Assembly: GCF_044324875.1 (NCBI RefSeq) | Contig: NZ_CP172185.1 | DNA: 64,000 nt | Reading direction: 5' to 3' (one strand) | Source of the DNA: Escherichia coli | Lineage (GTDB): Bacteria > Pseudomonadota > Gammaproteobacteria > Enterobacterales > Enterobacteriaceae | In this document: positions 62,840 to 63,258 of the stretch, piece by piece | How positions within the stretch are numbered: the first letter of the stretch is position 1 | How the letters are laid out: each line of letters begins with the position of its first letter | Notes under the pieces: generated by a model | Seen by the model: only the letters and a program-made list of their open reading frames with translations | What the model was told of the DNA's origin: nothing | Database searches by the model: none | Program-made: the position numbers and the translations under genes

Positions 62840-62863
62840 AAAAATACCGTTCTCTTTATAAAG

Positions 62864-62905
62864 TAAAACCCCCGAACTGGTAAGGAACGGGGGTTTTACT
62901 TTTTA
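62864..62905. terminator. Bidirectional-looking Rho-independent terminator after acpS
   Basis: Stem AAAACCCCCG / CGGGGGTTTT with T-runs on both sides. Confidence 0.6.
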
Positions 62906-63258
62906 ACTTTAATTTTGTGCAGCACGCACCCTCAACAAGAGCGATTATGGATCAGGGCGGTTATCTTTTACAAGCAACTTGCAATCTTTAGCATAAAAAC
63001 TCGAGCCTTTACGAAGAAAACAATATTGATGGAAAGATTAACGTGACCGCCAATTCGGAAGTACATTAAAATTGGCTTCGTTATTGGCGATTTTGCTGTG
63101 CTTTATACCATGCCACAGAATTCCCCCATTGAAACGAGTGGTGTCGTCAAAGCTCTGGTGTGGAGTGCAGCATGCACCCTCAATAACTCGCACGTTCAGT
63201 TTTGGGGAGATGTAAGGGCTAATCTGAACGGCTGCATTCCTTGTTTAAGGAAAAACGA

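What the first reader, a model, noticed from the sequence alone, without database searches (positions are those of the whole stretch)
62860..63000. Expected position of the OhsC antitoxin sRNA, divergent from shoB
In the shoB-ohsC system the antitoxin sRNA is transcribed divergently from the toxin and pairs with the toxin mRNA 5' region. The hairpin at 62864-62898 has T-runs on both sides and could terminate a minus-strand transcript starting around 62950-62990, as well as terminating acpS. I cannot delimit the sRNA from sequence alone, so I report this as a candidate, not a feature.
Basis: inference. Interest (0 to 1): 0.3.

Follow-up and report, generated by a model that had tools for sequence, protein, structure and literature searches.

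The report
Known OhsC antitoxin sRNA gene

Summary
The candidate is real and already known. Rfam family RF02495 (ohsC_RNA) matches window 62860-62936 on the minus strand over its full length (106.6 bits, gathering score 50, E 4.7e-18). The K-12 MG1655 annotated ncRNA ohsC (b4608, 79 nt) aligns without gaps to 62858-62936 (-), with two base differences.

- **Promoter:** TTGTAA-18-CATAAT at 62973-62944 (-), which puts +1 at G62936.
- **Terminator:** the hairpin at 62860-62902 is stable on both strands, so it can end both ohsC and acpS.
- **Pairing:** OhsC nt 1-20 pair with shoB 5'UTR 63166-63185, 74-93 nt upstream of the shoB AUG (63259). At DNA level this is a 22-nt direct repeat, and it is the best OhsC target in the 64-kb window.
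- **Covariation:** E. coli genomes carry two co-varying seed/target classes. Class A is about 66% and class B about 31%, with nearly equal seed and target counts. Five pairs change on both sides.
- **This strain:** it has a minority class A allele (505 of 5426 genomes). OhsC G12 makes a central G·U instead of A-U, at about 0.4 kcal/mol cost.

The mechanism of translational repression, transcription in this strain and the transcript ends are inferred, not shown. Novelty: already known. Interest: low.

The parts
62858..62936 (-). ohsC small RNA gene (antitoxin of the shoB/ohsC type I toxin-antitoxin pair), 79 nt by the K-12 annotation, 77 nt (62860-62936) by Rfam
   Evidence: RF02495 match 1-77/77, 106.6 bits, E 4.7e-18 (again). 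Ungapped alignment to NC_000913.3 ncRNA ohsC b4608 2700520-2700598 with 2 differences.
62917..62936 (-). OhsC 5' pairing region (nt 1-20: GUUGAGGGUGCGUGCUGCAC)
   Evidence: It is one copy of the 22-nt direct repeat D1 (62917-62938 / 63165-63186, 20 of 22 identical, reported as 91%). The 20-bp duplex is -38.8 kcal/mol. The site is the best non-self target of the 5' 25 nt in the whole window: -41.0 against -30.3 for the next best.
62860..62902 (.). Bidirectional intrinsic terminator hairpin: 3' end of OhsC on the minus strand, terminator of acpS on the plus strand
   Evidence: Inverted repeat I1. Rfam consensus structure with a 15-bp stem. Folds on both strands with z about -4. The plus-strand half also scores against RF02495 positions 31-77 because it is nearly palindromic, as PMC11264685 also noted.
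62944..62973 (-). ohsC sigma-70 promoter: -35 TTGTAA (62973-62968), 18-nt spacer, -10 CATAAT (62949-62944); +1 follows 7 nt later at 62936
   Evidence: Promoter scan. The hexamers are the ones listed for ohsC in PMC11264685 Table 2: TTGTAA in 66.8% of strains, CATAAT in 100%.
63166..63185 (+). OhsC binding site in the shoB 5' untranslated region (GUGCAGCAUGCACCCUCAAU), 74-93 nt upstream of the shoB AUG
   Evidence: Direct repeat D1. Duplex calculations. Covariation with the OhsC seed across E. coli. PMC3919570 describes 19 nt of complementarity between the OhsC 5' end and the shoB 5'UTR.
63043..63072 (+). shoB promoter: -35 GTGACC (63043-63048), 18-nt spacer, -10 TAAAAT (63067-63072); predicted +1 about 63079, giving a 5'UTR of about 180 nt
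   Evidence: Promoter scan. The hexamers are the ones listed for shoB in PMC11264685 Table 2. The +1 position is inferred from geometry only.
63259..63339 (+). shoB coding sequence, 26-aa hydrophobic toxin MTDCRYLIKRVIKIIIAVLQLILLFL, with RBS AAGGAA at 63247-63252
   Evidence: ORF list. RefSeq annotation of the 100% identical strain GMF054: shoB, WP_000128776.1.
63352..63395 (+). Probable shoB terminator hairpin
   Evidence: Inverted repeat I2, 18-nt arms, 78% complementary. It forms a stem in the predicted fold of the mRNA. Its function is inferred.
62459..62839 (+). acpS (holo-ACP synthase), the convergent upstream neighbour that shares the terminator
   Evidence: ORF list. RefSeq annotation.

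Best explanation
Window 62858-62936 (minus strand) is the gene for OhsC, the roughly 78-nt RNA antitoxin of the E. coli chromosomal type I toxin-antitoxin pair shoB/ohsC. A sigma-70 promoter (TTGTAA-18-CATAAT, 62973-62944) starts transcription at G62936. The RNA ends at the U-tract after the 15-bp hairpin at 62860-62902, which in the other orientation terminates acpS. The first 20 nt of OhsC pair with the shoB mRNA at 63166-63185. That site lies in a 5'UTR of about 180 nt, 74-93 nt upstream of the start codon, and does not touch the RBS. In this strain the duplex has 18 Watson-Crick pairs and 2 G·U pairs. Pairing keeps the 26-aa membrane-depolarising peptide ShoB from being made. The most likely routes are blocking an upstream ribosome-loading (standby) element, as IstR-1 does on tisB, and RNase III cutting the duplex. 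What is shown here: identity, boundaries by homology, promoter and terminator motifs, complementarity and its covariation. What is taken from the literature: that OhsC represses ShoB synthesis, and that RNase III cleaves in the duplex region. What is inferred: transcription in this strain, the exact transcript ends, and the standby-site step.
For: - **Identity:** full-length Rfam RF02495 match, 106.6 bits against a gathering score of 50. The K-12 ohsC annotation aligns without gaps, 77 of 79 nt identical.
- **Synteny:** acpS | ohsC | shoB | yfhL, as in K-12.
- **Promoters:** the hexamers equal the published ones.
- **Terminator:** the hairpin is stable on both strands.
- **Target:** the seed and target form a 22-nt direct repeat. 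The shoB site is the best target in 128 kb of window sequence counting both strands, -41.0 against -30.3 kcal/mol.
- **Covariation in sampled loci:** all 11 intact sampled E. coli loci, counting the window itself and one locus identical to it, carry a matched seed/target class.
- **Covariation in the population:** class B seed 1697 against class B target 1695 genomes. Class A seeds 3087+505 against class A target 3719, out of 5426.
- **Pair counts:** 5 pairs change on both sides and 98.8% of cells are paired, against 22.5-47.5% when the partner is slid.
- **Energies:** cognate duplexes -32 to -39 kcal/mol, cross-class duplexes (A with B) -16 to -21.
- **Literature:** the OhsC 5' end has 19 nt of complementarity to the shoB 5'UTR (PMC3919570). 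The mode of action is listed as 'inhibit protein synthesis', with a divergent arrangement like tisB/istR-1 (PMC4147584). RNase III cleavage sites were detected in the shoB/OhsC duplex region in vivo (PMC6212723).
Against: - No expression data exist for this strain, so the transcript, its ends and its activity are inferred from K-12.
- The primary paper (Fozo et al. 2008) could not be read here. The experimental basis is cited second-hand.
- The covariation rests on only four distinct haplotypes and may reflect a single block replacement. It is therefore one evolutionary event, not many.
- Class B keeps a central U·U mismatch and the window allele a central G·U. Perfect pairing is thus not strictly maintained.
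- The predicted fold of the shoB mRNA does not show the target as clearly single-stranded (mean unpaired probability 0.33 against 0.38 overall). The standby-site analogy has no direct support here.
Confidence: 0.95

Rival explanations
1. The hairpin is only the acpS terminator, and in this strain the minus strand is silent or makes a non-functional RNA, so ohsC is a relic here.
For: No transcript data for this strain. The OhsC allele differs from K-12 inside the pairing region, G12 instead of A12. Disrupted loci do exist in E. coli: IS903B inside ohsC in strain p10B, and IS1 next to it in strain 2452.
Against: Both promoter hexamers and the spacing are intact and identical to K-12. The RNA matches Rfam over its full length. 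G12 makes a G·U wobble that costs only about 0.4 kcal/mol, -38.8 against -39.2. The same allele is fixed in 505 complete genomes, which argues against a recent defect. shoB itself is intact, and without its antitoxin it would presumably be harmful.
Confidence: 0.03
2. OhsC works mainly by making the shoB mRNA a substrate for RNase III, that is by mRNA decay, rather than by blocking ribosome access. Translation block would be secondary.
For: RNase III cleavage sites were mapped in vivo within the shoB/OhsC duplex region (PMC6212723). A 20-bp duplex is long enough for RNase III. The site is 74-93 nt from the AUG and cannot occlude the RBS directly.
Against: Reviews list the mode of action as inhibition of protein synthesis (PMC4147584). 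In the related tisB/IstR-1 and zorO/OrzO pairs cleavage accompanies repression, and whether it is required there rests on my recollection, not on anything tested here. The two mechanisms are not mutually exclusive.
Confidence: 0.3
3. OhsC has additional or different primary targets elsewhere in the genome and acts as a general trans-acting sRNA, with shoB only one of them.
For: It is encoded apart from its target and pairs through a short 5' seed, like many trans-acting sRNAs (PMC3919570).
Against: Within this 64-kb window the shoB site stands alone, -41.0 against -30.3 kcal/mol or weaker elsewhere. Seed and shoB site co-vary as a unit, which would be hard to reconcile with several conserved unlinked targets. 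Only this window could be scanned, not the genome.
Confidence: 0.07

Closest known systems
OhsC (RyfC) of E. coli K-12 MG1655, b4608, Rfam RF02495; antitoxin of shoB/ohsC
   Same: Same gene at the same chromosomal position (acpS | ohsC | shoB | yfhL). 77 of 79 nt are identical. The promoter hexamers, terminator and target site in the shoB 5'UTR are the same.
   Different: There are two substitutions. OhsC nt 12 is G instead of A, which turns a central A-U pair into G·U. nt 78 in the 3' tail is A instead of U. Five bases in the promoter spacer also differ. This allele is carried by 505 of 5426 complete genomes, against 3087 for the K-12 allele.
Class B OhsC/shoB module (E. coli O157:H7, BH100N and about 31% of complete genomes)
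   Same: Same locus, same architecture, same terminator, same -10, same ShoB peptide.
   Different: OhsC nt 5-12 read GAAUCGUG instead of AGGGUGCG, and the shoB site changes in parallel. The -35 is TTGTAC. The cognate duplex keeps a U·U mismatch at nt 11. Predicted cross-class duplexes are -16 to -21 kcal/mol, against -32 to -39 for cognate pairs.
IstR-1 / tisB (E. coli)
   Same: Divergently encoded sRNA whose 5' end pairs over about 20 nt with a long toxin 5'UTR far upstream of the RBS. The duplex is cut by RNase III (PMC4147584; PMC6212723).
   Different: Unrelated sequence. tisB is under LexA/SOS control. Standby-site competition has been demonstrated for tisB but only proposed for shoB.
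OrzO / zorO and AgrB / dinQ (E. coli)
   Same: Same 'non-overlapping, divergent' type I architecture with 18-21 nt of 5'-end pairing to a 5'UTR of about 170-180 nt. OhsC's body can carry OrzO's seed in a functional chimera (PMC3919570).
   Different: Different toxins and sRNA sequences. zor/orz varies in copy number, whereas shoB/ohsC is single-copy (places per genome: median 1, highest 1 or 2).
Sib / Ibs and Sok / hok (classical cis-antisense type I pairs)
   Same: RNA antitoxin that represses a small hydrophobic membrane toxin.
   Different: Those antitoxins overlap the toxin gene and are fully complementary over 60 nt or more. OhsC does not overlap shoB: the two start sites are about 143 bp apart and pairing is limited to 20 nt.

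Membership tests
ohsC_RNA (Rfam RF02495) / OhsC antitoxin sRNA | Sequence-and-structure match to the family covariance model above its gathering score | tested here: met
   62860-62936 (-), model positions 1-77 of 77, 106.6 bits against a gathering score of 50, E 4.7e-18; repeated on the whole window.
ohsC_RNA (Rfam RF02495) / OhsC antitoxin sRNA | Orthologous position: between acpS and shoB, transcribed divergently from shoB | tested here: met
   acpS 62459-62839 (+), ohsC 62858-62936 (-), shoB 63259-63339 (+), yfhL 63534-63794 (-). The order is the same as in NC_000913.3.
ohsC_RNA (Rfam RF02495) / OhsC antitoxin sRNA | Own promoter placing +1 at the annotated 5' end | tested here: met
   TTGTAA-18-CATAAT at 62973-62944 (-), 7 nt before G62936. 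The hexamers are the same as published (PMC11264685 Table 2). This is a motif match only; promoter activity was not tested.
ohsC_RNA (Rfam RF02495) / OhsC antitoxin sRNA | Intrinsic terminator hairpin with U-tract at the 3' end | tested here: met
   15-bp stem at 62860-62902 followed by UUUUACUUUAU. The 79-nt RNA folds at -28.8 kcal/mol, z -4.24.
ohsC_RNA (Rfam RF02495) / OhsC antitoxin sRNA | 5'-end complementarity of about 19 nt to the shoB 5'UTR | tested here: met
   nt 1-20 pair with 63166-63185: 18 Watson-Crick and 2 G·U pairs, -38.8 kcal/mol. K-12 has 19 Watson-Crick pairs and 1 G·U.
ohsC_RNA (Rfam RF02495) / OhsC antitoxin sRNA | The RNA is actually transcribed and accumulates as a species of about 80 nt | not testable with these tools
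   No transcript data for this strain. The K-12 annotation is taken as a proxy.
Type I toxin-antitoxin system (shoB/ohsC) | Intact small hydrophobic toxin ORF with RBS next to the sRNA | tested here: met
   26-aa ShoB, with RBS AAGGAA at 63247-63252. The 100% identical strain GMF054 annotates this ORF as WP_000128776.1.
Type I toxin-antitoxin system (shoB/ohsC) | The sRNA represses toxin synthesis by base pairing with the toxin mRNA | not testable with these tools
   Support is indirect: seed/target covariation and literature statements. The primary experimental paper is not held.
Standby-site-blocking antitoxins (IstR-1/tisB type) | The sRNA site coincides with a single-stranded ribosome standby element needed for translation of a structured RBS | tested here: inconclusive
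   The site lies 74-93 nt upstream of the AUG, which is compatible. In the predicted fold the site has mean unpaired probability 0.33 and the RBS 0.32, against 0.38 overall, which is not informative. No processing or toeprint data are available.

The most novel reading that the evidence does not exclude
E. coli carries two non-cross-reacting specificity classes of the OhsC/shoB pairing module: class A in about two thirds of genomes and class B in about one third. Because seed and target are the same 22-nt sequence repeated in direct orientation 248 bp apart, gene conversion between the copies could keep them in register. The window's G12 allele (9% of genomes) and class B's U·U mismatch would then be tolerated imperfect states. 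The covariation and the linked frequencies are shown here. The lack of cross-reaction, the conversion mechanism and any selective reason for two classes in a single-copy system are untested. [quoted passage not shown]
Probability: 0.45. Interest if true: 0.3.

Novelty: already known. Interest (0 to 1): 0.1.

Why it matters
For the scan, this closes the finding. The candidate is the known antitoxin sRNA gene ohsC, now delimited to 62858-62936 (-) together with its promoter, terminator and target.

It has one practical use. RefSeq (PGAP) annotation lists no feature under ohsC in any listed E. coli record; among the records examined only the curated K-12 record annotates it. A sequence-only reader therefore recovered a real, usually unannotated gene.

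The modest added value is population-level evidence for the pairing. Seed and target switch together between two classes, with near-identical counts across 5426 genomes. That supports the proposed OhsC-shoB interaction, which the recent survey left open, and it gives natural allele pairs for a clean compensatory-mutation test.

Tried and rejected
- **Primary papers not readable:** Fozo et al. 2008 (PMID 18710431 / PMC2597788) and an id I recalled for Kawano et al. 2005 (PMC549416) are not held. Experimental facts are cited from later papers.
- **Wasted literature search:** 'OhsC' plus 'compensatory' returned only hippocampal slice culture (OHSC) papers.
- **Terminator scan:** it did not flag the ohsC/acpS hairpin because its loop limit is 8 nt. 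I used the repeat finder and folding instead.
- **Full-length duplexfold:** run on OhsC against the shoB mRNA, it ignores intramolecular structure and over-extends the duplex (-58 kcal/mol). I rejected that figure in favour of the 20-nt seed calculation.
- **First allele counts:** the 79-nt and 55-nt queries were confounded by partial alignments and by a 28-mer shared between the window allele and class B. I redid them with 54-mers in which no 28-mer avoids the diagnostic bases.
- **CpxR-box search:** GTAAA-N5-GTAAA with up to 1 mismatch found nothing in the ohsC-shoB intergenic region. I make no claim about the published CB1/CB2 sites in this strain.
- **GTDB species scan:** the terminator pattern found only E. 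coli-like genomes. Other Escherichia species could not be examined, so absence there is not shown.
- **shoB mRNA fold:** it gave no clear answer on target accessibility.
- **Short ORFs overlapping the region:** 62915-63046 (+, 43 aa), 62917-62991 (+, 24 aa) and 62968-63066 (-, 32 aa) were considered. I dismissed them as mechanical ORFs in promoter/sRNA DNA with no supporting annotation.

Full report
**Context.** The end of the window is the E. coli recO-pdxJ-acpS region, followed by shoB and yfhL.
- ORF listing gives acpS at 62459-62839 (+), the 26-aa ShoB ORF at 63259-63339 (+) and yfhL at 63534-63794 (-).
- An 801-nt query (62700-63500) hits 5425 of 5426 complete E. coli genomes. It is 100% identical to strain GMF054, whose annotation lists acpS and shoB but nothing between them.
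- A whole-window Rfam scan shows the expected neighbours: tmRNA, an rrn operon, the Phe leader, RyfD, AsrC and rncO. It also shows the ohsC match.

**Observation.**
- The inverted repeat has arms 62856-62874 and 62888-62906: 19 nt, 95% complementary, 13-nt loop.
- It folds stably in both orientations. The minus-strand 79-mer gives -28.8 kcal/mol, z -4.24. The plus-strand acpS 3' end gives -27.6 kcal/mol, z -4.06. In both cases 0 of 200 shuffles did as well.
- T-runs follow it on both strands, so it can terminate transcripts from either direction.
- The simple terminator scan missed it only because of its loop-length limit.

**Identity and boundaries.**
[quoted passage not shown] The score is 106.6 bits against a gathering score of 50, E 4.7e-18.
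- The other hits in the region are all below their gathering scores and are driven by the terminator hairpin.
- The curated K-12 record annotates ncRNA ohsC (b4608) at 2700520-2700598, between shoB and acpS.
- In an ungapped alignment those 79 nt correspond to window 62858-62936 (-), with two differences: OhsC nt 12 (G here, A in K-12) and nt 78.
- On the minus strand a promoter-like site, TTGTAA-18-CATAAT, occupies 62973-62944 and ends 7 nt before G62936. These are the hexamers reported for ohsC across more than 2000 E. coli genomes.
- The plus-strand site GTGACC-18-TAAAAT (63043-63072) carries those reported for shoB (PMC11264685 Table 2).
The guessed start (62950-62990) is in fact the promoter, and 62937-63000 is not transcribed as part of OhsC.

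**Pairing with shoB.**
- The repeat finder reports a 22-nt direct repeat, 62917-62938 and 63165-63186, 20 of 22 identical.
- ohsC is read from the minus strand and shoB from the plus strand. OhsC nt 1-20 (GUUGAGGGUGCGUGCUGCAC) are therefore complementary to shoB mRNA 63166-63185.
- The duplex has 18 Watson-Crick pairs plus G1·U and G12·U, at -38.8 kcal/mol. The K-12 allele gives -39.2.
- The 5' 25 nt of OhsC were scanned against both strands of the whole window. Its own antisense at 62911 scores best, trivially. The shoB site follows at -41.0 kcal/mol and the next best site is -30.3.
- The site lies 74-93 nt upstream of the AUG (63259) and does not overlap the RBS (AAGGAA, 63247-63252).
- With a predicted shoB +1 near 63079, the 5'UTR is about 180 nt and the two start sites are about 143 bp apart. 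The +1 is inferred from promoter geometry.
- This matches the published description of 19 nt of complementarity between the 5' end of OhsC and the shoB 5'UTR (PMC3919570).

**Evidence from related sequences.**
- I fetched ten further E. coli loci spread down the similarity ranking and aligned the intergenic regions. Two haplotype classes appear:

| Class | Examples | OhsC nt 1-20 | Reverse complement of the shoB site |
|---|---|---|---|
| A | K-12, this window | GTTGAGGGTGC(A/G)TGCTGCAC | ATTGAGGGTGCATGCTGCAC |
| B | O157, BH100N and others; -35 is TTGTAC | GTTGGAATCGTGTGCTGCAC | ATTGGAATCGAGTGCTGCAC |

- All 11 intact loci, counting the window itself and the identical strain GMF054, have matching seed and target classes.
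- I counted alleles with 54- and 55-mers designed so that no 28-nt megablast word avoids the diagnostic bases. Counts are out of 5426 complete genomes:

| Element | Allele | Genomes |
|---|---|---|
| OhsC seed | class A, A12 (K-12) | 3087 |
| OhsC seed | class A, G12 (this window) | 505 |
| OhsC seed | class B | 1697 |
| shoB target | class A | 3719 |
| shoB target | class B | 1695 |

- Equal counts cannot prove linkage genome by genome, but the near-equality of 1697 and 1695 is what linkage predicts.
- A formal pair count on the four distinct haplotypes gives 98.8% of cells paired, against 22.5-47.5% when the partner is slid. Five pairs change on both sides, and no shuffle reached these values.
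- Predicted cognate duplexes are -32 to -39 kcal/mol and cross-class duplexes (A with B) -16 to -21.
- Caveats: there are only four haplotypes, and the class difference is one contiguous block, so this may be a single evolutionary event. Because the two sites form a direct DNA repeat, gene conversion could copy a change from one to the other; this is inference.
- Pairing is not perfect everywhere. Class B keeps a U·U at nt 11, the window allele a G·U at nt 12, and strain E69 two internal G·U pairs.

**Distribution.**
- A scan of one genome per GTDB species with the terminator pattern found only E. coli E69, two unnamed Escherichia species and a 231-bp contig labelled Terasakiella. All carry full-length RF02495 matches.
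[quoted passage not shown] An exact-pattern scan cannot show absence elsewhere.

**Mechanism.**
- Shown here: the gene, its signals and the co-varying complementarity.
- From the literature:
  - ShoB overproduction depolarises the membrane and kills, and OhsC prevents its expression (PMC8309996).
  - The mode of action is listed as inhibition of protein synthesis, with the tisB/IstR-1 standby model suggested as a possibility (PMC4147584).
  - RNase III cleavage sites are seen in the shoB/OhsC duplex region in vivo (PMC6212723).
  - Two predicted CpxR boxes lie in the shoB-ohsC intergenic region, and both genes respond to Cpx activation (PMC9600279; PMC11264685).
- Inferred: OhsC binding far upstream of the RBS blocks a ribosome-loading element and/or triggers RNase III decay. 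My fold of the shoB mRNA did not discriminate between these.
- The main rival at the level of identity is 'only an acpS terminator, with a silent minus strand'. It is very unlikely, given the intact promoter, the full-length match and the fixation of this allele in 505 genomes.

**Verdict.** This is a known gene of a known system, so novelty is 'already known' and interest is low. The only mildly new element is the explicit demonstration that seed and target switch together between two population classes. The 2024 survey noted this region as variable but did not assess its pairing.

Noticed in passing
window 62917-62936 and 63166-63185; loci L003-L010: E. coli has two co-varying OhsC-seed/shoB-target classes, A (about 66%) and B (about 31%), with nearly identical seed and target counts (1697 against 1695 for class B). 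Class B retains a central U·U mismatch.
   Followed up: yes
window 62925: This strain's OhsC has G at nt 12 where K-12 has A, giving a central G·U wobble with the unchanged shoB site. The allele occurs in 505 of 5426 complete genomes. Class B also has G at this position.
   Followed up: yes
L011 (NZ_CP103758.1, strain p10B) about 1-500; L012 (NZ_CP031833.1, strain 2452) 1-394: Natural disruptions of the locus. An IS903B-family element replaces the 5' part of ohsC and everything upstream of it in p10B. An IS1A sits upstream of the ohsC promoter region in strain 2452, with shoB no longer adjacent.
   Followed up: partly
RefSeq records under hits H31-H111: PGAP-annotated E. coli genomes list no feature under ohsC ('none'). 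Among the records examined only the curated K-12 record NC_000913.3 carries it. The sRNA is therefore unannotated in every listed PGAP record, even though a Rfam family exists.
   Followed up: partly
L015 (CACVCF010000286.1, 'Terasakiella sp. PR1', 231-bp contig): A 231-bp contig in a marine alphaproteobacterial assembly carries an ohsC whose 77-nt Rfam span and upstream 40 nt are identical to E. coli K-12. It is most likely contamination of that assembly.
   Followed up: partly
window 62967-62994 (+): A second plus-strand promoter-like site, TTTACA-16-TAGCAT, overlaps the ohsC promoter in antisense and would start about 63001, upstream of the accepted shoB promoter. The region has 5 promoter-like sites against 2.3 expected, so this may be chance.
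   Followed up: no
window 63098-63262 (+) and 63072-63215 (+): Mechanical ORFs of 54 and 47 aa lie inside the shoB 5'UTR. The first ends just past the shoB start codon. No annotation supports them and they were not examined further.
   Followed up: no
window 62832-62842 / 62900-62910: An 11-nt perfect inverted repeat (AAAGTTAAAAA / TTTTTAACTTT) flanks the terminator hairpin. It extends the plus-strand fold across the acpS stop codon (TAA at 62837-62839). Its significance is unknown.
   Followed up: no
L013 (CP089930.1, E. coli strain E69) 262-341: This divergent lineage has a 3-nt longer OhsC spacer (AATATTATTTAAG), a ShoB variant (VV for II at residues 14-15) and two internal G·U pairs in the seed duplex. 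Pairing is preserved through wobble pairs only.
   Followed up: partly
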